A stretch of DNA of 64,000 nt. Origin: an uncultured cyanobacterium (lineage in GTDB: Bacteria > Cyanobacteriota > Cyanobacteriia > Cyanobacteriales > CAWCAG01). Of the stretch, positions 34,211 through 50,429 are shown piece by piece; position 1 is the first letter of the stretch, and the number at the start of each line of letters is the position of its first letter. The stretch is taken from the NCBI GenBank assembly GCA_963793425.1, contig CAWCAG010000005.1, positions 1,792,001 through 1,856,000 on the forward strand. The letters are read 5' to 3'. The translations under genes and the position numbers were made by a program. The notes below the pieces were generated by a model, which worked only from the letters and a program-made list of their open reading frames with translations, searched no databases and was not told the origin of the DNA.

Positions 34211-36205
34211 TTAGATATTGGTTTTCAATACTACTGTTAAACCGTAGTTAAAACTTAGTAAGCGCAACCAGAGGGAAGGATAATTCTTTTCTAGATAGGG
34301 CTGTAAGCGCTTCAGCAAGCTAGGAAACCAACCTAGGAATAGCCAGCTAATTAGAGAATCGATGGTAAAAGAGAAATAAGTTCCTAACCAACGCAGTAAA
34401 TCTTTTGTACCCGCTTGTACCCAAATCCACCACAACAAACTAGGATTCATTTTTGCGGCTTTGAGAGCTAAGCGATTGAAGGTTAGCCAGTTGATTTTAT
34501 CTTTAATGAAAGTATCTGCTACTTCTGGAGGTTCATGAGCTAAAAGTCCGAAGAAAGTATTGAGCATTCCGTTAATGCGTTGGGGAGGTAAACTCTTTCC
34601 GGTGGGAACCATCATACCTTTAGAAAAAAGCCAGGTAACAGCGACATTACTCTGATAAGCGCGGATCTGATTCAAATCCTTGGTACTGAGTAAGTCATAT
34701 TTTAGGGCTGTATCAAGTAAATTGGTTAAGCGCCCTAAGTTGCGTACTAAGGAACCAAAGCCCGTAAATACCAAAGGAGACTGAAGAGAAGCCGCATCAC
34801 CAATAGCTAACAAACGATCAAAAGCAACCGTGCGATCGCGACTCCCTAAACTAAAATGTCCGGGAATGTAACCGAAAGTTGCCTTCTTCCAAACCAACTT
34901 TTCCAGGTCGCAACGGCGGTACTCCGGTAAAATTGTAAAGAAATCTTCATACATTTCTAATAAAGAGCCGGGGTTATCAGGATGGACTTGATGATAATGA
35001 AATAAATAGATAGTAAGTTCGTTGTTTGCTCCGGGAAATAACTCCCAAATTAATTGTCTTCCCCTAGAAATATCCCCGTGGGAATTCAAAACATCACCAT
35101 AGTCACTATCCCAAACTTCCGGCGCAAAACCGCTCTCTACTACTGCTCCTACCGTAGGACAAACACTATCAAAAGCACGAGTGCCATTAAGTTGCCAAGC
35201 AATCGGAGAAGCGCTGCCCATGGCATCTATCAATAAGCGTCCTTGGGCTTGTTTTGCTGTTTGTGTGGGTAAGTGAGTGAGTTGAATATTCACCTGATTC
35301 TCCCCCACCTCAGCCCGAACAAATTCCGTTTCATCCCAGATTTCTCCCCCCCTTTGACGCAATTTTTCCCCGCATAAATGCAGCAGTCGCTCTGAGTTGA
35401 GGGCAATATTTAAAACCGTAGGAGTGTGTAAAACTTTAGCTTGAAGATGAGTGGGAAGACTCTCATCAAAAAATTTATTAAAACCGTCTTTATATTCCTT
35501 GGCAATTAGACTTTCAAATTCTTCTTGAGTAAATAAACCCAAATTAATCAAGCTTTGAAACTCGCTCCGGGAAATATTCCATTCCCGATTCATTTTCCCA
35601 AAGGGCAACCGTTCTACTAATAGTACTTTATAGCCTAATTGCGCCATCACTGCGGCATGAATAACCCCTAAAGCTCCGCCGATGTAAATGAGGTCGTAGT
35701 TATGAGGAAGGGCTTGCTCAACAGGAGAAGCACGAAAGATGACTTGTTTCGGTTTTTGGGGTTTTCCGACATTCTCTCGCCAACTTTTTTCCCACCAATA
35801 AGCCCGTTGCAAATCGTATTCTCCATGGGGAATCTTTTGGAAAAATTTAACAGTTAGAGGATAGTAAGGTGCTAAGGCTTCAAAAATAGATTGTTCTGAT
35901 AAATTAATTTCCGGAGGAGCAGGATATTGACAAGGGAAATTAGTTCCTAGATCCGTAATCAAGCATCGACAAATTGTATGTTCTTGAGGAATTGAAGTTT
36001 CTCCCCAACGAAACATTTTCAAATAGGTAGTTCGTTGGACAGACCAAACAAAAATTGATAATTCTGATTCGGGAGAAAAGCATAAGCGAATACCATCAGA
36101 TGTTAAGATTTTTTTCCCCTGAGAAGGCTGCCATGTCTCCTGTAACCAATACCGTACAGCCGCTGTGTCTGGAGTAGGAACTTCTCTATAAAGAATTTCT
36201 TTCAT
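34211..36205 (-). CDS. cruA: CruA-type lycopene cyclase (FAD-dependent)
   Basis: N-terminal EVPTPDTAAVR.WLQ, YDLIYIGGALG, REWNISR, IGDAASLQSPL.FTGFGS; 664 aa fits CruA rather than the shorter CruP. Confidence 0.75.
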   Translation of the reverse strand: MKEILYREVPTPDTAAVRYWLQETWQPSQGKKILTSDGIRLCFSPESELSIFVWSVQRTTYLKMFRWGETSIPQEHTICRCLITDLGTNFPCQYPAPPEINLSEQSIFEALAPYYPLTVKFFQKIPHGEYDLQRAYWWEKSWRENVGKPQKPKQVIFRASPVEQALPHNYDLIYIGGALGVIHAAVMAQLGYKVLLVERLPFGKMNREWNISRSEFQSLINLGLFTQEEFESLIAKEYKDGFNKFFDESLPTHLQAKVLHTPTVLNIALNSERLLHLCGEKLRQRGGEIWDETEFVRAEVGENQVNIQLTHLPTQTAKQAQGRLLIDAMGSASPIAWQLNGTRAFDSVCPTVGAVVESGFAPEVWDSDYGDVLNSHGDISRGRQLIWELFPGANNELTIYLFHYHQVHPDNPGSLLEMYEDFFTILPEYRRCDLEKLVWKKATFGYIPGHFSLGSRDRTVAFDRLLAIGDAASLQSPLVFTGFGSLVRNLGRLTNLLDTALKYDLLSTKDLNQIRAYQSNVAVTWLFSKGMMVPTGKSLPPQRINGMLNTFFGLLAHEPPEVADTFIKDKINWLTFNRLALKAAKMNPSLLWWIWVQAGTKDLLRWLGTYFSFTIDSLISWLFLGWFPSLLKRLQPYLEKNYPSLWLRLLSFNYGLTVVLKTNI

Positions 36206-37808: not shown

Positions 37809-38069
<261 letters not shown>

Positions 38070-38101
38070 TAGCAAATCCTCTTGAAATACCTTTAAAAAT
38101 C

Positions 38102-38133
38102 AAAAGAGAGAGCTAGTTGCCCTCTCTTTTTTT
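38102..38133. terminator. intrinsic terminator after psaC
   Basis: AAAAGAGAG...CTCTCTTTTTTT. Confidence 0.75.
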
Positions 38134-38194
38134 AAGAAGGGAGTAGGGAGTAGGGAACAGGTGAAAAACAGGTGACAGGTGATAGTCTAATTGC

Positions 38195-39259
38195 TCAGTA
38201 TGTCTCCTTAGCATCTTCTTTTTCCTTAATAAGCCAATAAGTCGTCATCTTCCCTTTACCTTTAATCTCCACTTCACCGCGTTTCTCAAACACATAGCGG
38301 TCGCGACAGAGTTTGTAAGTACTTTCAGTAACTTGAATTTTGCTAGAAACCCCTGAAGATTCCATACGGGAAGCCACATTAACCGTATCCCCCCAAAGAT
38401 CGTAAATAAACTTAGTCACCCCAATTACTCCCGCTACCACCGGCCCGCTGTGAATGCCGATACGAATGGTAAAATTTTCTTGCTTATGGTTAGGAATTTT
38501 AGCGATCGCCTTTTGCATATCTAAAGCCATAGCCGCGATCGCTTGGGCATGATCTGGCCTAGCCACAGGTAATCCTCCTGCTACCATATAAGCATCGCCA
38601 ATAGTTTTAATTTTTTCTAAGCCGTGTTTTTCGGCAAGTTGGTCGAACTGAGAAAAAATGGTATTGAGGACACTAACCAATTCTAAAGGAGAAATTTGAG
38701 CAGAAAAAGGTGTAAAACCAACAATATCAGCAAAAAGAACTGTAGCATTCTGGAAACGTTCAGCCAAAGAACCTTGATACTCTTTTAACTGTTCAGCGAT
38801 CGCTTTTGGTAGAATATGTAGCAATAAACGCTCAGATTTTTCTCTTTCACAGCTTAATTGTTCATTAGTTCGCTTCAGTTGTTGAATTAATTGGTACTGC
38901 CGCAACCCTACCCTAACCCTAGCCAATAGTTCACTAGGATCAATAGGCTTAGCCAAAAACTCATCAGCCCCAGCATCTAACCCCTGTACGCGATGGTTTA
39001 CCGACTCCTGGGAAGTAAGTAGAATAAAAAAAGCACTGCTTAAACTATCGCTAGCTTTCACCTGACGACAGACTTCCATACCATCCACAACTGGCATAAT
39101 CCAATCACAAATAATTACCCCTGGCTGCAACTTTTCTGCCAATTGGAGTCCTTCCGCACCGTTTTCAGCTACAGCGACATCATATCCTTCTCTTTCCAAA
39201 TCTCTTTTGAGAAATAGCCGCGTCACTCGATCGTCTTCGACTACGAGAATTTTTGACAT
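38195..39259 (-). CDS. response regulator receiver-class III adenylate cyclase
   Basis: REC (VEDD, CDWIMP, KP) plus FADIVGFT, KIKTIGDAYM, YDLWGDTVNVASRMES (ATP-type K/D pair). Confidence 0.92.
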   Translation of the reverse strand: MSKILVVEDDRVTRLFLKRDLEREGYDVAVAENGAEGLQLAEKLQPGVIICDWIMPVVDGMEVCRQVKASDSLSSAFFILLTSQESVNHRVQGLDAGADEFLAKPIDPSELLARVRVGLRQYQLIQQLKRTNEQLSCEREKSERLLLHILPKAIAEQLKEYQGSLAERFQNATVLFADIVGFTPFSAQISPLELVSVLNTIFSQFDQLAEKHGLEKIKTIGDAYMVAGGLPVARPDHAQAIAAMALDMQKAIAKIPNHKQENFTIRIGIHSGPVVAGVIGVTKFIYDLWGDTVNVASRMESSGVSSKIQVTESTYKLCRDRYVFEKRGEVEIKGKGKMTTYWLIKEKEDAKETY

Positions 39260-39526
39260 AGTTACCAGTTGGTGGGTGGGGAATTAGATTGCGGTTTGTC
39301 TCTACTGCAAAATCTAAGTCTTATATTTTTCTTTCTTTGTAGTCTTTATCCGGATTAAATTAAATTTTGTGAGTCTACATCTACTTGTCATAGCTATTAA
39401 TTGAAATAGATGTTATTAGACAATCAAACCTTTTAATTCAAGCCGAAACTGACCACAATATCTAAATAAGCTGAAGATGCACCCACTAGATATCATTACA
39501 TTACTATTATGGCTTAAGCAAATAGA

Positions 39527-42500
39527 TCAAAATGTTTTCACGAAAATCTGTACCTGCTCAAAAACTTGCTCTAGCCCCATAATAAGTTCTGGCGCTTTTT
39601 GTAATTTTTGATTGCGGGCTTCTGTTTCTAATTGAAGAGCTAATTCTGGCATTGATATTATGGCTACCATCGCTGCTGCGCCTTTGAGTTGATGAGCATT
39701 GATAGCCAAATTCTCAAAATCCCTTTCTTCTAAAGATTGCTTGATTTGGTACAAATAAATCGGAGCATCCTCCAAGAAAATTTGCATCATTTCTTGCTGG
39801 AACTCTTTACTACCCCGCGATATTTCTTCAAGACGAACCAGATTAAAAGGAGTTTCATGAGCTACCCTTACCTGAGTAATTGTTGCTGTTTGGAGCGCTT
39901 TTTGCCCTGAATTATGGTAAGCAGAAACTAGTTGAGGAGATGAACAATGAGCTTCTCCTAAAACCAACTTGGGTGAAGTTTTTTTCTTACTGATTTGAGG
40001 ACACCAGCGATCAATCACGCTGGCAAGCATTTCTAGGGTGATGGGCTTACTGATGTAATCATCCATCCCCCACTCCAAACACTTTTCTTTTTCTCCTTTC
40101 ATGGCATTAGCCGTAATCGCAATTACCGTAGTATGACGAGATATGCCCTCTTTTTCCCGTATTGCTTGGGTTGTTTTATAGCCATCAAGAATAGGCATTA
40201 AACAGTCCATAAACACAAGATCATAGTTTTGCTCAGATAATCTTTCTAGGGCAGCTTGACCATCTTCGGCACAGTCAGCTTGATAACCTAACATCTCAAA
40301 TTGAGATAGTAAAACTTTTCGGTTAGTGGGAGTATCTTCAACTAAGAGAATTTTGAGATGAGGATTTTGGGGAGGATGAATAGGCGGTTTGTGACGATAG
40401 GTAAAAGGAGAGGGAGAAGTAGGTTTATTCTTGAGGTAGAAAGTATTGGTGAGACAATCTAATAATTGAGAAGCTCTGATTGGTTTGAGTAAATAATCAG
40501 AAGCACCTTGCCAAAGTAGATTTTTCACTTCTTTGTGCTGGCGGATAGAAACCATCACAATCCATTTAACATTCTTCAAAACAGGGTCATACCTAATAAG
40601 TTGACCGAGAGTTTCGCCATTAATCTGGGGACTTTGCAAATCTACAAGGGCCACATCATAGGGCTTACTATCTAAAGCTGCTTTACGGAGTATAGAAATG
40701 GCAGCTTGGGTACTTTGGACTTCTTCAACTTGAATATTATAAGACTCTAAACAACTCTGAATTACTTGATAGCTAGTGGTATTGTTATCCACCACCAATA
40801 GTTTTAAACCATCTAGATGTTGTTCTCGCAAAGCCTTTAAATTAACTTGTGGTGTCTGTTTAGTGAACTGAACAGTAAACCAAAAAGTTGTACCTTGGCC
40901 TGATGCACTTTGAACACCAATTTCCCCTCCCATCAATTCAACTAATTGTTGACAAATTACTAATCCTAAACCTGTACCGCCATGGGTACGGGTTGTGGAA
41001 GTATCAATTTGAGAAAACGCTTGAAAAAGTTTCTTTTGCTCAGATTTAGAAATACCAATACCTGTATCCTTAACCTCAAAGCGCAATTTAATATGTTGAC
41101 GACTTTCTATCACAGGAGAAACACGAATGATCACTTCTCCTTTTTCAGTAAACTTAATACCGTTGCTTACCAAGTTAGTGAGAATTTGACGCAAGCGCCG
41201 GCCATCTCCTTTTAATTCTAAAGAGACATCACTTTCAATTAAAGTAAATACTCCTAAACCTTTGGTTTGAGCCTCTGCTGACAATAAATCTACTACTTCT
41301 TCTACACAGTTGCTTAGGTTGAAGTCTAGGGTTTCAATGTTCATTTCTCCAGCTTCTAGCTTGGAAAGGTCAAGAATATCGTTAATAATTAAGAGGAGAT
41401 TTTTAGCACTTTCGCTAATAGTTTGGACAAAATTAAGTTGTTGAGCATTCAGGGGAGTTTCTAATAACAAATCTGTCATTCCCAAAACCCCATTCATGGG
41501 AGTACGGATTTCATGACTCATATTGGCTAGAAACTGAGATTTCATTCGCGAGGCTTCTAAAGCAGTTTCTCTAGCTTCTACCAATTCGTTGATTTGGTGG
41601 GAAACTATCACAACACCACCAATGCTACCGTCAGGAGTGTACCAAGGATGTAGAGCCGAACGCAGATATAGTACACTACCATCAGCACGCTGCCAAATAT
41701 CTTCAGGGTAAGAGATGGACTCTCCTTTGAGTACTTTTTGCAAGTCTTCTTTCCAACTTTCAAGAAGATCAGGAAAAACTTCATAGTGACTACGACCTCG
41801 CAGATCTGCATCTCCTAAGTTATAATCTTGCAGCAACTTGTTACTGTAAGCTATGTAGCGCATTTGAGTATCTAACATTGCCATTGCTACTGGTGCTTGA
41901 GTAATAATCTCTCTAAGCTGCTGGCGTTCTTGTTCTAAGACAGATTCATATTGCTTCCGTGTGGTAATATCTTCGGCAATTCCGGCGATGCGATAAATTT
42001 CCCCAGCCTGATTTTTGACCGGAAAAGCGCGATCATGAATCCAGCAAGTTGTTCCGTCTGGGCGGAGAATGCGAAACTCTTGGTCATAATCTCCGTTTAC
42101 ACTGTGTAATTTAATAGCACTCTGAACTCTTTGTTTGTCTTCAGGGTGAATAAATTCTTGAAAAGATTGGGATGTAGTTAGTTTAGTGTTGCAACCACAA
42201 CCCCAAATTTTATCGCATTTGGGACTAACATAAATAGTCTCTTTAGTTTGAGCATCAACCATCCAGAAAACTTCTTCTAAGTTTTCTGCTAGTTGACGGA
42301 ACTTCTCTTCACTTTCTTGCAAAGCTTCTTGGGCTAGTTTACGTTCAGTAATATCTGCTTGAACCCCGATGTAGTGAGTTAGGTTTCCTAATTCGTCTTT
42401 CACCGGAGAAATGTAAAGATCATTCCAAAATAAGCTACCATCTTTGCGATAGTTACGCAGAACAACGTTACATTCTTTGCCTTCTCTCAAAGCCCCTCGT

Positions 42501-43198
42501 AATTCTTCTAAAGCTTCTTGATCTGTTTCCTTTCCTTGTAAAAAGCGGCAGTTTTTACCGATAACTTCCTGGGCAGAATATCCTGTTATGCGTTCAAAGG
42601 CAGGATTAAGATAAACAATCGGTAGCTCTTTTTGAGTAGCATCGCTGATGACAATACCATTATTGCTAGCAGTAATAGCTCTTTCTAAAACCCGCAAGCG
42701 TTCTTCTTTTTGCTTACGTTCGGTAATTTCTCGCTCTAGTTCTTGGTGAGAATTGTATAATTCTGTGGTACGCTGTTGCACTCGCTCTTCTAATTTGAGG
42801 TTGATAGCTTCTAGTTGAGCCGGACTAGTTAAAGCAAGGGCTTGGGGAATTAAAGGAAATAACTCTAAAGCTGTATAACAAGAAATGAAAGCAGTAAGGG
42901 CTTTAAGAAAACCCGATAGCCAGTAAGCCGGATGCCAAAGAGTCCATACTTCCAAGATATGGGTTGTACCGCAGGCGATAATAAAAGCACCAAATAAGAA
43001 AAATATGCCTCGAAAAGGCACATCTTCCCGCTTGCGGACGAAGTAAATTAGCATAGCGGGAATGGAATAATAAGCTAGAGCGATTAAGCTATCGGAAATG
43101 ACGTGCAGCCAGACCAATTGAGTTTGCCAGAGATAGCAATTGCCATGAGGCATAAATCTCTCTGGCGAAAATAATTCTCTAATTATTTCCCACATCAT
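39527..43198 (-). CDS. hybrid histidine kinase: ETR1-like 3-TM domain, LOV, PAS, PAS, HisKA/HATPase, 2 REC, HPt
   Basis: SDSLIALAYYSIP and IACGTTH; GKNCRFLQG; SHEIRTPMNG; GGTGLGL; two receiver domains; AHQLKGAA. Confidence 0.9.
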   Translation of the reverse strand: MMWEIIRELFSPERFMPHGNCYLWQTQLVWLHVISDSLIALAYYSIPAMLIYFVRKREDVPFRGIFFLFGAFIIACGTTHILEVWTLWHPAYWLSGFLKALTAFISCYTALELFPLIPQALALTSPAQLEAINLKLEERVQQRTTELYNSHQELEREITERKQKEERLRVLERAITASNNGIVISDATQKELPIVYLNPAFERITGYSAQEVIGKNCRFLQGKETDQEALEELRGALREGKECNVVLRNYRKDGSLFWNDLYISPVKDELGNLTHYIGVQADITERKLAQEALQESEEKFRQLAENLEEVFWMVDAQTKETIYVSPKCDKIWGCGCNTKLTTSQSFQEFIHPEDKQRVQSAIKLHSVNGDYDQEFRILRPDGTTCWIHDRAFPVKNQAGEIYRIAGIAEDITTRKQYESVLEQERQQLREIITQAPVAMAMLDTQMRYIAYSNKLLQDYNLGDADLRGRSHYEVFPDLLESWKEDLQKVLKGESISYPEDIWQRADGSVLYLRSALHPWYTPDGSIGGVVIVSHQINELVEARETALEASRMKSQFLANMSHEIRTPMNGVLGMTDLLLETPLNAQQLNFVQTISESAKNLLLIINDILDLSKLEAGEMNIETLDFNLSNCVEEVVDLLSAEAQTKGLGVFTLIESDVSLELKGDGRRLRQILTNLVSNGIKFTEKGEVIIRVSPVIESRQHIKLRFEVKDTGIGISKSEQKKLFQAFSQIDTSTTRTHGGTGLGLVICQQLVELMGGEIGVQSASGQGTTFWFTVQFTKQTPQVNLKALREQHLDGLKLLVVDNNTTSYQVIQSCLESYNIQVEEVQSTQAAISILRKAALDSKPYDVALVDLQSPQINGETLGQLIRYDPVLKNVKWIVMVSIRQHKEVKNLLWQGASDYLLKPIRASQLLDCLTNTFYLKNKPTSPSPFTYRHKPPIHPPQNPHLKILLVEDTPTNRKVLLSQFEMLGYQADCAEDGQAALERLSEQNYDLVFMDCLMPILDGYKTTQAIREKEGISRHTTVIAITANAMKGEKEKCLEWGMDDYISKPITLEMLASVIDRWCPQISKKKTSPKLVLGEAHCSSPQLVSAYHNSGQKALQTATITQVRVAHETPFNLVRLEEISRGSKEFQQEMMQIFLEDAPIYLYQIKQSLEERDFENLAINAHQLKGAAAMVAIISMPELALQLETEARNQKLQKAPELIMGLEQVFEQVQIFVKTF

Positions 43199-43434
43199 AA
43201 TTGTTTCCCTTATCTACCATCGCCCAACAGTTTCTGAACACATTGAGGGCTTTTTTACATTATGGGCAAGACAGTGGTTGCGATCGCGTCTATGATCACG
43301 TATAACTTTTTGAAAGTAGAAATCTTTTCCTTATATTTAAGGATGCGATCGCAAACTATATTCACCCTCGCTATAATCGCATCCTGCTAAAGAATAATGG
43401 TATTGCAGCAATTAAGGGAGAAAAGGCAAATTCA

Positions 43435-47553: not shown

Positions 47554-47597
47554 AGCAAAAGCAAAATACTATAAGTTTAAGTTTGATAAGAAGTAAA

Positions 47598-50429
47598 ATG
47601 ATCAATGACAATAGTACTATCGACCTTGCTAGCCAAATTCTTACTCATCTCATAGAACTTGCTAAGATTACTCCTGATAGTAACAACTGGCAAAATATTG
47701 TTAAGACAGCTATCAACAAAACCAAAGAACTACAACAACAATTGCCAACTTTAGCAGAGAGTGAAGTCGAATGGCGATCGCTAGTGGAGAATAGCTCTGA
47801 TATTATTTGTATTGACAATCCTCAAACCAACATTGTCTACATCAATCCTGCGGTTGAAAAAGTTCTTGGTTACTCACCAGAATTTTTTATCTCCCGCTCA
47901 CCATTGCAATTCATTCATCCAGATGACTTAACTGCCGCTACCGAAGCTTGGCATAAACTTGCTTCTCAACCTCTTGGTACTAGTAGTGGTTGGCTTGAAT
48001 ACCGCTATCGCCACCAAAATGGTTCCTGGCGAGTATTACAAGCTTGTGGTAAAAATCTCCTCGACGATCCCCATGTTCAAGGTATAGTCTTCCATTGTCG
48101 AGACATTACAGACAGTAAGCTAGCCAAAGAAACTTTACAAATTACAAATGATCAGCTACAAGCTGTCTTAGATGCGGTTCCAGGGTTCGTTTCTTGGGTA
48201 AGTGCAGAAGGAAATTACTTGGGGGTCAATCGCTATCTTGCTGCTGCTTTCAACCTCTCTCCAGAAGAATTTATTGGTAAAGAGATTGGGTTTCGTAAAA
48301 GTAGCTCTCAGTTTTCTTGCTTGATGGCAGAATTTATGGGTAGTAGTAAGATGAGTGCTTCCCAAACAATCCAAGCTAAAATTGATGGCACAAACCGCCA
48401 TTACTTAATTGCCGCTCAAAAATATCAGCAAGGGAAAGCGGCTGTATCTGTAGGCATAAACATCACAGCCCGTAAAAAAGCAGAAGAAGAGCGTGATCGC
48501 CTCTTTGCTCAAATCGAACAACAAAATCAAAACCTAGAAGCCCAAGTACAAGAACGTACTACTGAGTTAGAAAAAGAATTGGCAGAACGCAAACGGGCAG
48601 AAATAGCCCTACGGGAAAGCGAACAGAAATTAGAACTATTCTTTTCTCAATCTCTAGATGGCTTTTCTTTTATGATGCTTGATGAGCCAGTACGTTGGGA
48701 TCATACCATTGATCAAGAAGCAGCTTTAGATTATATCTTCGAGCATATGCGCTTTACAAAAATCAATGATGCTATGCTCGCTCAATATGGCGCTAAACCA
48801 GAGCAACTGATTGGTTTAACTTTAAAAGAGTTACTAGGACATGATCTTGCCAAAAGTAGAGAAATTGTCAGATGCTGTTTTGAGGCAGGAAAATTGCAAG
48901 TAGAAGCCCAGGAGCGTAAGTTAGATGGTACTCCCATCTGGACAGAATCAAAAATAATTTGTATGTACGATCAAGAGGGGAGAATTACCGGAAACTTCTG
49001 CATACAAAGGGAAATAACTGATCGTAAACAAGCAGAAGTTGCCTTAAAACAAAGCGAAGAAAAATTCCGTCAGTTAGCAGAAAATACAGAAAGTGCTTTT
49101 TGGATTACAGAGCCATCAACAAGAAAAGTCATTTATGTTAGTCCTGCCTTTGAGAAAATCTGGGGGCGCGAACGTAGTTTTATATATAATTCTATTCAAA
49201 CTTGGCAAGCGGCTATTCACCCGGAAGATCGAGAACGTATAGTTACTCTAAATCCCCAACAAATGTACTCAGGGAGTGATGAACAGTATCGTATTGTTCG
49301 TCCTAATGGAGAAGTACGTTGGGTTCGCGATCGCGCCTTTCCTATTTATAATGAACAAGGTGAAGTATATCGTCTTGCTGGTATTGCTGAAGATATTACC
49401 GAAAGAAAACAAGCAGCAGAAGCCTTGAGTCGCAGCGAAGAGCGCTTCCGTAGTTTAGTGGAAACTAGTAGTGATTTTGTTTGGGAATTAGACGAAAATC
49501 GCATCTTTACTTATGCCAGTCCTCAAGTTTTTAGCATTTGGGGTTATCAGCCAGAAGAGTTATTAGGAAAAAGCCCCTTTGATTTAATGACCCATCAAGA
49601 AGCAGAGCGGGTAAAAGGTATATTTGAGGAGTATTTTAACGGCAGGAAGTCCTTTCAATCTATAGAAAATACCTGCGTACATCAAAAAGGCCACTCTGTG
49701 GTTATGGAAACTAGTGGTGTACCAATCTTTGACAGCGCCAATCGATTCCGAGGTTATCGGGGTATGGATAGGGATATTACTGAGCGCAAGTTAGCAGAAG
49801 ATAAGATCAAAGCTTCTTTACAAGAAAAAGAAACTTTACTTAAAGAGATTCATCACCGCGTCAAAAATAATCTGCAAATCATTTCTAGTTTATTACGCCT
49901 GCAATCCCGGCATATTGAAGATCAGCAAGCTATAGAGCTAGTCTCAGAAAGTCAAAACCGAGTCAGAAGTATGGCCTTGGTTCATGAACAACTTTATCAA
50001 TCCTCTAATTTGGCTGAAGTCGATTTACAAAAATATATCCAAACCCTAACTAGCAATCTGTTACGCTCCTACAGTATTAATTCTTGCCGAGTACATCTCA
50101 CCATTGATGTTGAACCCATTGCTTTAGGAGTAGATTTAGCTATTCCCTGTGGTTTAATTATCAACGAACTAATTTCCAATTGCTTGAAATATGCTTTCCC
50201 GGAGCATAGGAAAGGAGAAATTCGGGTTAGTCTTCATCGTAAGGGCAAAAAATCTTTTATTCTCACGATTAGGGACGATGGCATCGGTTTACCAGAAAAT
50301 TTAGACTTACATAGCACTGATACTTTGGGATTGCAGTTAGTACATCGATTAACCAAGCAGCTAGGAGGTATAGTGGAACTTAATTGTGACCAAGGTACAG
50401 AGTTTAAAATTATTGCTCAACTACCCTAG
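47598..50429 (+). CDS. multi-PAS HisKA_2-type sensor histidine kinase
   Basis: About five PAS/PAC domains; LKEIHHRVKNNLQ; NELISN..KYAF; DDGIG; ATG at 47598 preferred to TTG at 47583. Confidence 0.9.
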   Translation: MINDNSTIDLASQILTHLIELAKITPDSNNWQNIVKTAINKTKELQQQLPTLAESEVEWRSLVENSSDIICIDNPQTNIVYINPAVEKVLGYSPEFFISRSPLQFIHPDDLTAATEAWHKLASQPLGTSSGWLEYRYRHQNGSWRVLQACGKNLLDDPHVQGIVFHCRDITDSKLAKETLQITNDQLQAVLDAVPGFVSWVSAEGNYLGVNRYLAAAFNLSPEEFIGKEIGFRKSSSQFSCLMAEFMGSSKMSASQTIQAKIDGTNRHYLIAAQKYQQGKAAVSVGINITARKKAEEERDRLFAQIEQQNQNLEAQVQERTTELEKELAERKRAEIALRESEQKLELFFSQSLDGFSFMMLDEPVRWDHTIDQEAALDYIFEHMRFTKINDAMLAQYGAKPEQLIGLTLKELLGHDLAKSREIVRCCFEAGKLQVEAQERKLDGTPIWTESKIICMYDQEGRITGNFCIQREITDRKQAEVALKQSEEKFRQLAENTESAFWITEPSTRKVIYVSPAFEKIWGRERSFIYNSIQTWQAAIHPEDRERIVTLNPQQMYSGSDEQYRIVRPNGEVRWVRDRAFPIYNEQGEVYRLAGIAEDITERKQAAEALSRSEERFRSLVETSSDFVWELDENRIFTYASPQVFSIWGYQPEELLGKSPFDLMTHQEAERVKGIFEEYFNGRKSFQSIENTCVHQKGHSVVMETSGVPIFDSANRFRGYRGMDRDITERKLAEDKIKASLQEKETLLKEIHHRVKNNLQIISSLLRLQSRHIEDQQAIELVSESQNRVRSMALVHEQLYQSSNLAEVDLQKYIQTLTSNLLRSYSINSCRVHLTIDVEPIALGVDLAIPCGLIINELISNCLKYAFPEHRKGEIRVSLHRKGKKSFILTIRDDGIGLPENLDLHSTDTLGLQLVHRLTKQLGGIVELNCDQGTEFKIIAQLP

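What the first reader, a model, noticed from the sequence alone, without database searches (positions are those of the whole stretch)
39527..43198. Ethylene-receptor domain fused to a canonical LOV domain in one hybrid kinase
Seen: the N-terminal 3-TM region has D36, Y43, I46, P47, I73, C76 and H80, the same spacing as Arabidopsis ETR1 D25, Y32, I35, P36, I62, C65 and H69. The first PAS is a LOV with GKNCRFLQG (C217, nt 42548-42550) and the downstream Gln (YIGVQ). Known: the characterised Synechocystis receptor Slr1212 pairs this domain with a bilin-binding GAF, not LOV. Inference: a dual ethylene and blue-light sensor with a full phosphorelay.
Basis: partly seen in the sequence, partly recalled or inferred. 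Interest (0 to 1): 0.75.

Follow-up and report, generated by a model that had tools for sequence, protein, structure and literature searches.

The report
Ethylene-domain plus LOV hybrid sensor kinase
One cyanobacterial membrane kinase joins an intact plant-type ethylene-binding domain directly to a canonical blue-light (LOV) domain and probably controls cAMP, making it a rare, untested candidate for sensing a gas and light together.

Summary
ORF 39527-43198 (-), 1223 aa, carries a full-length ETR1_N ethylene-binding domain (EBD; Pfam E 3e-44). It has D36, Y43, I46, P47, I73, C76 and H80, plus K99.

A predicted 52-residue helix joins the EBD to a canonical LOV domain (C217, codon TGC at 42548-42550; E 1e-40 to solved LOV proteins). 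Then follow two PAS domains, a kinase core, a receiver-like domain, a receiver and an HPt domain.

The next gene encodes a receiver fused to an adenylate-type cyclase. This pairing is conserved in the sister species.

Between the two species the EBD is the most constrained domain (dN/dS 0.01).

The EBD-LOV pairing is not unique. At least 11 other database clusters, from cyanobacteria and planctomycetes, combine an intact EBD with a LOV further downstream. Earlier notes of this scan report the same pairing in Gemmata.

The direct junction with both sensors intact was found only in this genus. The four other direct-junction lineages have each lost a key residue of one sensor.

Four literature searches found no paper describing an EBD-LOV protein; two relevant reviews were not held.

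Verdict: a probable dual ethylene and blue-light kinase, a new variant of the SynEtr1 type. Ethylene binding, photocycle and output are all untested.

The parts
39527..43198 (-). Hybrid sensor histidine kinase gene, 1223 aa
   Evidence: ORF list and translation. Ortholog in the sister species G001, 105 aa differences in 1222 aligned codons, dN/dS 0.13.
42830..43120 (-). ETR1-type ethylene-binding domain, aa 27-123, three membrane helices (26-56, 63-86, 93-121). Carries D36, Y43, I46, P47, I73, C76, H80, K99.
   Evidence: Pfam PF25487, E 3e-44, full model. Key columns invariant in 48 EBDs. AF2 model. dN/dS 0.010 against G001.
42689..42829 (-). Linker, aa 124-170. Part of one long helix (126-177) from membrane helix 3 into the LOV domain; predicted coiled coil in the dimer.
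   Evidence: AF2 model, pLDDT 95-98 over 130-180. Dimer model contacts recur every 3-4 residues over 123-175. Best heptad register places 10 hydrophobic a/d residues.
42299..42688 (-). LOV domain with flanking helices, aa 171-300. Carries N216, C217, R218, Q221, R234, N249, N259, Q280; J-alpha helix 284-304.
   Evidence: PDB phmmer, E 1e-40 to short LOV proteins. Foldseek top hits are all LOV, e.g. 9vf7 TMt 0.93-0.95. NCBIfam YtvA_fam and blue-light kinase models match this stretch below their full-protein cut-offs. Residues located.
42548..42550 (-). Codon TGC for Cys217, the presumed flavin-adduct cysteine
   Evidence: Read directly from the window.
41975..42235 (-). Second PAS domain (PAS_3), aa 322-408
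   Evidence: Pfam.
41579..41899 (-). Third PAS domain (PAS_4), aa 434-540
   Evidence: Pfam.
41348..41545 (-). HisKA dimerisation and phospho-acceptor domain, aa 552-617, H562 in SHEIRTP
   Evidence: Pfam, E 1.7e-21. Motif position.
40862..41209 (-). HATPase_c catalytic domain, aa 664-779
   Evidence: Pfam, E 9.3e-31. N and G box motifs located.
40445..40819 (-). Divergent receiver-like domain, aa 794-918. D853, S884 and K905 are present, but the acidic pair reads D804-N805.
   Evidence: Pfam Receiver_CRE1 and VpsR; also the second stretch of Response_reg. Motifs.
40013..40351 (-). Canonical receiver domain, aa 950-1062, with E954, D955, D998, T1029, K1051
   Evidence: Pfam Response_reg, E 6e-42. 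Motifs.
39548..39793 (-). HPt domain, aa 1136-1217, H1169 in HQLKG
   Evidence: Pfam Hpt, E 1.9e-13. Motif.
38195..39259 (-). Next gene, 267 nt downstream on the same strand. Response regulator (D52) fused to a class III nucleotide cyclase with K218 and D287 at the positions recalled as adenine-specifying. Proposed output.
   Evidence: Pfam Response_reg plus Guanylate_cyc, E 2.4e-70. Best PDB matches are adenylate cyclases. 92% identical ortholog in the same position in G001. Terminator-like hairpin only after this gene, 38130-38102.

Best explanation
The gene encodes a homodimeric, membrane-embedded hybrid histidine kinase with two sensory inputs in series.

The first input is a Cu(I)-dependent ethylene-binding domain in the membrane. 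The second is a flavin-binding LOV domain that forms a Cys217-flavin adduct in blue or UV-A light. One continuous coiled-coil helix runs from membrane helix 3 into the N-terminal cap of the LOV domain. Both inputs would therefore act on the same signalling helix, which continues through the J-alpha helix, two further PAS domains and the DHp helices.

The combined signal sets autophosphorylation at H562. The phosphoryl group then passes to D998 and on to H1169 of the HPt domain. The most likely final acceptor is D52 of the receiver-cyclase encoded by the next gene, which would change cAMP levels.

Shown here: the domains, the key residues, the selection pattern, the predicted fold and dimer, and the gene neighbourhood. 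Inferred: Cu and ethylene binding, the photocycle, the sign of each input, the phosphotransfer partner, and cAMP as the product.
For: EBD:
- Full-length ETR1_N match, E 3e-44.
- D, C, H and K have the same relative spacing as in AzoEtr1, an experimentally ethylene-binding protein (D35/C75/H79/K98; PMC11819568 passages).
- Against the sister species the EBD shows 1 replacement but 23 synonymous differences in 122 codons. dN/dS is 0.010, against 0.15 for LOV and 0.10 for the kinase core.

LOV:
- E 1e-40 to solved photoactive LOV proteins, with CRFLQG and the following Arg, Asn, Asn and Gln positions matching the LOV alignment.
- The model superposes on LOV structures with TMt up to 0.95.
- It is the only ORF of 5649 (>= 100 aa) in the genome with NCRFLQ.

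Coupling:
- The AF2 monomer has a single helix over 126-177.
- The homodimer model scored ipSAE 0.70 in three runs, best of 3 controls 0.00, at least 87% contact agreement, partner pLDDT at least 82. In the tool's calibration the mark was reached by 20 of 30 proteins solved as pairs and 1 of 23 solved as single chains. Contacts run through the membrane helices, the linker and the LOV sheet. My own alignment and two FMN were used, and solved LOV-kinase dimers exist, so the pass may partly reflect likeness to them.

Phosphorelay: H562, D998 and H1169 are present.

Output:
- A receiver-cyclase gene lies 267 nt downstream, with no terminator-like site in the gap and a 12-pair hairpin after it.
- The same pair occurs in G001.
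- In this genome 3 of the 4 intact EBD kinases are followed by a receiver fused to a second-messenger enzyme: two cyclases and one GGDEF-EAL protein.
Against: No biochemical datum exists for this protein.

Of the four other lineages with a direct EBD-LOV junction, three have lost EBD key residues.
- The 83%-identical cluster P0002 has N36 and Y80 in all 3 members.
- P0159 has a weak EBD (46 bits), with L at the I73 position and Y at the His position.
- The G016 protein keeps only model positions 37-94.
So an ethylene or Cu site is not needed for this type of kinase to persist.

The selection estimate rests on a single pair of genomes.

The cyclase link is shown only within one genus. Only 5 of 80 other EBD loci have a cyclase-domain ORF within 8 kb. 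The genome has 11 further strong cyclase paralogs and many receivers, so partner specificity is open.

The promoter and terminator scans do not exceed shuffled expectation (17 against 14.5, and 7 against 5.9). A promoter-like site lies in the gap (39391-39364), so separate transcription is possible.

The adenine-specifying roles of K218 and D287 are recalled, not tested.
Confidence: 0.5

Rival explanations
1. It is essentially a membrane-anchored blue-light (LOV) kinase. The EBD serves as a dimerising membrane anchor, or senses something other than ethylene (copper status, or another small unsaturated or gaseous ligand).
For: Related direct-junction kinases persist with a changed or decayed EBD. 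P0002 has N36/Y80 in 3 of 3 cluster members, yet its EBD is still 80% identical. P0159 and the G016 protein have remnant EBDs. His-to-Tyr and Cys-to-Tyr variants occur in other EBD kinases of relatives (L188, L199). The dimer model places much of the interface in the EBD helices.
Against: Here, and in G001, every binding and signalling residue is kept, and the EBD is the most constrained part of the protein (dN/dS 0.010). An anchor role alone would not require D36, C76, H80 and K99. Cyanobacterial EBDs with these residues bind ethylene in the cases tested (SynEtr1, Geitlerinema cells; PMC6682694 passages).
Confidence: 0.25
2. It is an ethylene-receptor kinase in which the LOV domain is a dark-state flavin or redox module, or merely a structural relay, and not a photoreceptor.
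For: Close relatives carry LOV-like PAS domains without the Cys in the same position. P0036 has NSRFLQ. The roughly 845-aa family, and L012, have TPRILQ/K. A PAS relay without photochemistry is therefore viable after an EBD.
Against: The Cys and the whole canonical motif set are present. Identity to the solved photoactive LOV proteins shown in the alignments is about half of the aligned positions (Foldseek 44-49%). The LOV is under purifying selection (dN/dS 0.15).
Confidence: 0.07
3. The sensor is as described, but the phosphorelay ends on another response regulator elsewhere in the genome. The neighbouring receiver-cyclase would belong to a different kinase.
For: There is a 267-nt gap with a promoter-like site. 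HPt-containing hybrid kinases often serve distant regulators (general knowledge). The genome holds many cyclases and receivers. Adjacency was seen only within one genus.
Against: A kinase followed by a receiver-fused second-messenger enzyme recurs at 3 of the 4 EBD kinases of this genome. No terminator-like site separates the two genes.
Confidence: 0.4

Closest known systems
SynEtr1 / UirS (Slr1212) of Synechocystis sp. PCC 6803
   Same: One polypeptide with an N-terminal ethylene-binding domain, then a photosensory domain, then a histidine kinase. [quoted passage not shown]
   Different: Its photosensor is a bilin-binding cyanobacteriochrome GAF (UV-A/violet). Here it is a flavin LOV, and Pfam finds no GAF. 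SynEtr1 is described with a C-terminal kinase only; this protein adds a receiver-like domain, a receiver and an HPt. The proposed output here is a receiver-cyclase, not UirR/LsiR.
AzoEtr1 of Azospirillum brasilense (PMC11819568)
   Same: A bacterial EBD kinase shown to bind ethylene. Its D35/C75/H79/K98 pattern is offset by one residue from D36/C76/H80/K99 here. A response-regulator gene lies directly downstream.
   Different: No LOV or other photosensor is reported. Its partner regulator is a 135-aa receiver without an output domain.
Soluble bacterial LOV histidine kinases and the engineered YF1 (PDB 4gcz, 6ph4, 8a3u)
   Same: LOV core with flanking helices feeding a coiled coil and a kinase. 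The LOV here matches them at E 1e-25 to 1e-40 and in fold.
   Different: As far as I recall, those proteins are cytosolic and have light as their only known input. Here the LOV N-terminal helix continues from a membrane EBD, and two PAS domains lie between the LOV and the kinase.
Arabidopsis ETR1
   Same: The same Pfam family for the membrane domain. The Cu-ligand Cys and His, the Asp, and the Lys implicated in signal output are conserved (PMC10266040 passages).
   Different: Described for ETR1: a GAF domain follows the EBD (PMC5832771 abstract in the listing), and the N-terminus carries two disulfide cysteines against one in cyanobacterial EBDs (PMC6682694 passage). No photosensor is reported for ETR1, to my recollection. 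Here the loop between membrane helices 2 and 3 is three residues shorter, inferred from the AzoEtr1 numbering.
Unorthodox hybrid kinases of the BarA/TorS/ArcB type
   Same: Kinase core, receiver and HPt in one chain. The best NCBIfam match is BarA over residues 538-1205.
   Different: Not an ortholog: 511.6 bits against a cut-off of 890. The sensory part is different, and there is an extra receiver-like domain.
Other database proteins with both an EBD and a LOV (for example P0013 of Coleofasciculus sp. H7-2, P0213 of Pirellulales, P0257 of Lacunimicrobium album), and the Gemmata kinases noted earlier in this scan
   Same: An intact seven-residue EBD and a Cys-bearing LOV in one kinase.
   Different: The LOV lies 200-800 residues downstream, with other PAS or GAF domains between. 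None has been characterised. Most were named only 'PAS domain S-box protein' or left unnamed by their sources; one member of the P0257 cluster was named a CheB/CheR fusion.

Membership tests
ETR1-type ethylene-binding domain (Pfam PF25487 ETR1_N) | Match to the family model above its curated cut-off, over the whole model | tested here: met
   149.7 bits against a cut-off of 27; residues 27-123 on model positions 1-97 of 97.
ETR1-type ethylene-binding domain (Pfam PF25487 ETR1_N) | Three transmembrane helices at the N-terminus | tested here: met
   AF2 model helices 26-56, 63-86 and 93-121. Prediction only.
ETR1-type ethylene-binding domain (Pfam PF25487 ETR1_N) | Cu(I) ligands Cys and His in helix 2, and the helix-1 Asp (ETR1 C65, H69, D25) | tested here: met
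   C76, H80 and D36 are present and invariant in 48 EBDs. Their roles are taken from PMC10266040 passages.
ETR1-type ethylene-binding domain (Pfam PF25487 ETR1_N) | The other residues required for ethylene binding (Y, I, P, I) and the helix-3 Lys for signal output | tested here: met
Y43, I46, P47, I73 and K99 are present. Y43, I46 and I73 are invariant; P47 and K99 are at least 90% conserved.
ETR1-type ethylene-binding domain (Pfam PF25487 ETR1_N) | Saturable Cu-dependent ethylene binding | not testable with these tools
   Needs a 14C-ethylene binding assay.
LOV photosensor domains | PAS fold most similar to solved LOV domains | tested here: met
   phmmer E 9.8e-41 to 7a6p; 134 PDB sequences at E <= 1e-10. 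Foldseek top hits are LOV, TMt 0.85-0.96.
LOV photosensor domains | Adduct-forming Cys in the GXNCRFLQ motif | tested here: met
   GKNCRFLQG with C217, codon TGC.
LOV photosensor domains | Conserved flavin-pocket Arg, Gln, Asn, Asn and Gln | tested here: met
   R218, Q221, R234, N249, N259 and Q280 are present and aligned with identical residues of solved LOV proteins. Their roles in flavin binding are recalled.
LOV photosensor domains | Flavin binding and a blue-light photocycle | not testable with these tools
   Needs spectroscopy of the expressed domain.
Hybrid (unorthodox) histidine kinase with an H-D-H phosphorelay | H-box His, ATP-binding domain, receiver Asp and HPt His | tested here: met
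   H562; HATPase 664-779; D998 with E954/D955, T1029 and K1051; H1169 in HQLKG.
BarA / TorS / ArcB equivalogs (NCBIfam) | Score above the curated equivalog cut-off | tested here: not met
   BarA 511.6 against 890; TorS 424.1 against 676.5; ArcB 402.5 against 838.
SynEtr1/UirS-type bifunctional receptor | Bilin-binding cyanobacteriochrome GAF after the EBD | tested here: not met
   Pfam finds no GAF domain in the protein. It works like SynEtr1 in concept but is not a member.
Receiver-regulated class III adenylate cyclase (neighbouring gene) | Receiver with an acceptor Asp, plus a class III catalytic domain with Lys/Asp substrate residues | tested here: met
   Pfam Response_reg and Guanylate_cyc. 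D52, K218 and D287 located. Best PDB matches are adenylate cyclases. The meaning of Lys/Asp is recalled; the product is not testable here.

The most novel reading that the evidence does not exclude
The EBD, coiled coil and LOV form a natural two-input gate. Ethylene occupancy of the membrane Cu(I) site and the flavin-Cys adduct would act on one shared signalling helix and jointly set cAMP through a dedicated receiver-cyclase.

Taken with SynEtr1 (EBD plus a UV-A/violet cyanobacteriochrome), this would be a second, independent coupling of ethylene sensing to short-wavelength light. That would imply that cyanobacteria read ethylene as part of a light or photo-oxidative signal. It would also supply a defined blue-light photoreceptor upstream of cAMP, a link whose receptor is still unknown in Synechocystis.
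Probability: 0.3. Interest if true: 0.7.

Novelty: new variant of a known kind. Interest (0 to 1): 0.5.

Why it matters
Bacterial ethylene receptors are known from very few tested cases: SynEtr1, AzoEtr1 and cell-binding data. How the membrane EBD transmits its signal is still unsolved.

This protein offers a compact module of about 300 residues. In it, an intact EBD is wired by a single helix to one of the best-understood photosensors. Light could then serve as an internal reference for how an EBD moves a signalling helix.

The pairing also repeats, with a different chromophore, the ethylene-plus-short-wavelength-light combination of SynEtr1. That argues the combination is functional rather than accidental.

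The adjacent receiver-cyclase gives a testable route from blue light, and from ethylene, to cAMP. In Synechocystis blue light raises cAMP through Cya1, but the receptor is described as unclear (PMC7690835 passage).

The relatives form a natural mutant series. Each has lost one sensor's key residue: D36N/H80Y, remnant EBDs, or Cys to Ser.

Tried and rejected
- RNA evidence for expression or co-transcription: no RNA holder was listed for window 38100-43400.
- PDB sequence search with the EBD (aa 1-140): only two chance-level hits, E 0.12 and 0.39. No solved relative.
- Metagenome scan with full-length P0036, meant to recover its contig and neighbours. The 80 loci kept were kinase-core relatives. 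0 of 80 had an EBD and 2 had a LOV motif. A dead end, and it used the only scan of that collection.
- Genome-contig scan with aa 1-300: 80 loci kept of 452 confirmed, all with an EBD, 0 with NCRFLQ. The tool may leave out the window's own and near genomes, so this says only that the direct fusion is not among the best 80 others.
- The reviews by Papon and Binder (2019) and Carlew et al. (2020), which I recall as showing domain architectures of bacterial EBD proteins, are not held. I could not check whether they depict an EBD-LOV protein.
- An HPt-with-receiver complex prediction was considered and not run. It is a textbook pair that would pass by likeness without testing specificity. The single job went to the homodimer instead.
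- I considered whether the ORF start or a frameshift creates the fusion artificially. Rejected: the frame is open over 1228 codons, and the same junction occurs in G001 and in the P0002 cluster.
- No supplementary files were read.


Full report
**What is there**

The minus-strand ORF 39527-43198 encodes 1223 residues. The window is cyanobacterial. A psaC-like ORF lies at 37824-38069 (named from recall), and all close relatives are cyanobacteria.

Pfam gives this domain order:
- ETR1_N, residues 27-123, E 3e-44, covering the whole 97-position model;
- PAS_9, 180-285;
- PAS_3, 322-408;
- PAS_4, 434-540;
- HisKA, 552-617;
- HATPase_c, 664-779;
- a divergent receiver-like domain, 794-918, matching the Receiver_CRE1 and VpsR models;
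- a canonical receiver, 950-1062;
- HPt, 1136-1217.

The best NCBIfam matches are BarA, TorS and ArcB, all well below their equivalog cut-offs. The protein is therefore a hybrid kinase of that general design and not an ortholog of any of them.

**The ethylene-binding domain (EBD)**

Counting on the translation confirms D36, Y43, I46, P47, I73, C76 and H80.

In an alignment of 48 EBD N-termini (this protein, the sister species, and 46 of the 80 genome-contig loci), D36, Y43, I46, I73, C76 and H80 are invariant. P47 and K99 are at least 90% conserved.

Published work assigns the Cys and His to the Cu(I) cofactor. It assigns the Asp to copper and ethylene binding, and a helix-3 Lys to signal output (PMC10266040 passages). 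In AzoEtr1, which binds ethylene, these residues are D35, C75, H79 and K98 (PMC11819568 passages). That is the same pattern as D36, C76, H80 and K99 here, shifted by one.

No solved structure matches this domain. An AlphaFold2 model of residues 1-305 (mean pLDDT 86.3) has three helices at 26-56, 63-86 and 93-121.

**The LOV domain**

Residues 161-306 match 134 distinct PDB sequences at E <= 1e-10. The best are Pseudomonas short LOV proteins (7a6p, 9.8e-41; 7r5n, 1.1e-40). YF1, aureochrome, YtvA and phototropin LOV domains follow.

The motif GKNCRFLQG carries C217, codon TGC at 42548-42550. R218, Q221, R234, N249, N259 and Q280 are in place.

The model's LOV part superposes on solved LOV domains with target TM-scores up to 0.96.

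Among 5649 ORFs of at least 100 residues in the genome, this is the only one with NCRFLQ. The next-best LOV-like domain (107 bits) reads TPRILQ and lacks the Cys.

**How the two sensors are joined**

The model shows one uninterrupted helix, 126-177, from the end of membrane helix 3 into the LOV domain. A J-alpha helix follows at 284-304.

A homodimer prediction of residues 1-305 (two copies, two FMN riding along, my alignment A1) gave ipSAE 0.70 in each of three runs. The best of three controls scored 0.00. Contact agreement was at least 87% and partner pLDDT at least 82. In the tool's calibration the mark was reached by 20 of 30 proteins solved as pairs and by 1 of 23 solved as single chains.

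Contacts run between helix 1 of one chain and helix 3 of the other. They recur every three to four residues along 123-175, and continue on the LOV sheet.

The model supports a parallel coiled-coil dimer but does not show it. Solved LOV-kinase dimers exist, so part of the score may come from likeness to them.

The one relative with a longer linker (P0036) is longer by 21 residues, which is three heptads. That is a single case.

**Selection**

The sister species G001 has the same gene: 93% identity over residues 2-300, and 105 differences in 1222 aligned codons. Domain by domain:

| Domain | dN/dS |
|---|---|
| EBD (1 replacement, 23 synonymous differences, 122 codons) | 0.010 |
| Linker | 0.18 |
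| LOV | 0.15 |
| Kinase core | 0.10 |
| Receiver | 0.03 |
| HPt | 0.07 |
| Spacer before HPt | about 1 |

The EBD is thus the most constrained part of the protein in this genus. This rests on one pair of genomes.

**Output**

The next gene on the same strand (38195-39259, 267 nt downstream) encodes a receiver fused to a class III cyclase. Its best solved relatives are adenylate cyclases. It has Lys218 and Asp287 at the positions I recall as adenine-specifying.

A 92% identical ortholog sits in the same place in G001.

No terminator-like site lies in the gap, and a 12-pair hairpin follows the cyclase gene. Neither scan exceeds shuffled expectation, however, and a promoter-like site lies in the gap.

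The genome has four intact ETR1_N kinases, and three are followed by a receiver fused to a second-messenger enzyme:
- this one;
- an EBD-GAF-GAF kinase followed by a receiver-cyclase;
- an EBD-PAS kinase followed by a receiver-PAS-GGDEF-EAL protein.

This recurring arrangement is my main reason to propose the neighbour as the acceptor.

Against it: only 5 of 80 EBD loci from other genomes have a cyclase-domain ORF within 8 kb, and the genome has 11 further strong cyclase paralogs.

**How rare is the architecture**

Proteins with both an EBD and a Cys-bearing LOV are not unique.
- I pooled the top lists of two searches: best 120 of 6030; best 150 of 293,609 representatives. Of these 257 proteins, 165 have an EBD, 46 have a LOV-Cys motif and 16 have both.
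- Among the 16, the seven residues are intact in this protein and in 10 others, and an eleventh has Pro changed to Ser.
- In those, the LOV lies 200-800 residues downstream of the EBD.
- They include Coleofasciculus, Pirellulales and Lacunimicrobium.
- Earlier notes of this scan report the same pairing in Gemmata.

The direct junction is much rarer.
- A junction-focused search (residues 60-240; best 120 of 1263) found it only in this protein's cluster and in P0002. P0036 is a Cys-to-Ser variant.
- Among 41 related genomes, I examined the 10 loci returned and 25 further full-span matches; 257 matches went unlisted. The direct junction occurs in G000, in G001, and with an EBD remnant in G016.

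There are five direct-junction lineages in all, and only this genus keeps both sensors canonical:

| Lineage | State of the sensors |
|---|---|
| This genus (G000, G001) | Both intact |
| P0002 cluster (83% identical) | N36 and Y80 in all 3 members |
| P0159 | Weak EBD (46 bits) |
| G016 protein | Only EBD model positions 37-94 |
| P0036 | Ser for the LOV Cys |

Asn at the Asp position is a known natural variant, commonest in cyanobacteria. In ETR1 it gave no detectable ethylene binding in the assays used, while the receptor stayed functional (PMC10266040 passages).

**Literature**

Four searches combined ethylene-binding or ETR1 terms with LOV. None returned a paper describing an EBD-LOV protein.
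- The single hit matched the word 'love'.
- The single hit treats LOV proteins and UirS separately.
- One listed paper on moss PAS kinases was read in passages and is unrelated.
- For some searches I otherwise judged the hits from the listings alone.

Reviews note that bacterial EBD proteins have diverse domains and may integrate several inputs (PMC7700396 passage).

Two reviews that I recall showing architectures of bacterial EBD proteins are not held. An earlier depiction therefore cannot be excluded.

**Verdict**

The reading as a dual ethylene and blue-light hybrid kinase is the best-supported one, at about 0.5 for the whole chain including the cAMP output. It is higher for the blue-light kinase part alone.

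It is a new variant of the SynEtr1-type bifunctional receptor, with a flavin LOV in place of the bilin GAF. It is rare in its intact direct-fusion form and uncharacterised.

Interest is moderate. A specialist would not be astonished, because domain shuffling around EBDs is known. But the protein, and the natural series of relatives each lacking one sensor's key residue, make signal integration by an EBD directly testable.

Noticed in passing
window 41564-42313 (aa 296-545, second and third PAS domains): Against the G001 ortholog, synonymous divergence here is only 0.03-0.04, compared with 0.25-0.95 in every other part of the gene. This suggests recent recombination or gene conversion of this segment between the two lineages.
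   Followed up: no
proteins P0002, P0258, P0259 (metagenomic, 83% identical ortholog cluster): All three members carry Asn for D36 and Tyr for the Cu-ligand H80. The EBD otherwise stays 80% identical and the LOV keeps its Cys. This is a natural EBD-site variant of the same kinase.
   Followed up: partly
G000:C5:1927847-1930186 (outside the window); also L012 and P0078/P0084/P0088/P0094: A LOV-like PAS with GKTPRILQG/K (Pro in place of the adduct Cys) occurs in a 768-aa kinase of this genome with a different membrane N-terminus. In roughly 845-aa proteins of other cyanobacteria it is fused directly to an intact EBD.
   Followed up: partly
G000:C5:1094775-1099040, C5:2015022-2019641, C9:772209-775247 (outside the window): There are three more intact ETR1_N kinases in the genome: EBD-GAF-GAF-HK, EBD-PAS-HK and EBD-PAS-PAS-GAF-HK. 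The first is followed by a receiver-cyclase and the second by a receiver-PAS-GGDEF-EAL gene.
   Followed up: partly
G000:C5:378959-379276 (outside the window): A 106-aa open frame matches only the first half of an EBD (query residues 14-73) and then diverges. It is probably a gene remnant.
   Followed up: no
whole genome G000: The set of class III cyclase domains is unusually large: 11 further ORFs at E <= 1e-66 to the neighbour's catalytic domain, and about two dozen weaker ones.
   Followed up: no
window 34211-36205 (-): A 664-aa ORF has no Pfam match and only a weak match to the geranylgeranyl-reductase flavoprotein family (27 bits against a cut-off of 158.8). An ORF of identical length lies nearby in G001. 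A paper mentions a lycopene cyclase gene next to GeiEtr1; I did not test for any link.
   Followed up: no
L188 (G025:C18:15919-16782) and L199 (G035:C40:29350-30246): EBD kinases of related genomes with Tyr for the Cu-ligand His (CGTTY, together with Ala for the conserved Pro), or Tyr for the Cu-ligand Cys. Loss of the copper site recurs in the family.
   Followed up: no
window 47556-50426 (+): A 957-aa open frame with several PAS-like stretches lies a few genes upstream of the kinase. It was not analysed.
   Followed up: no
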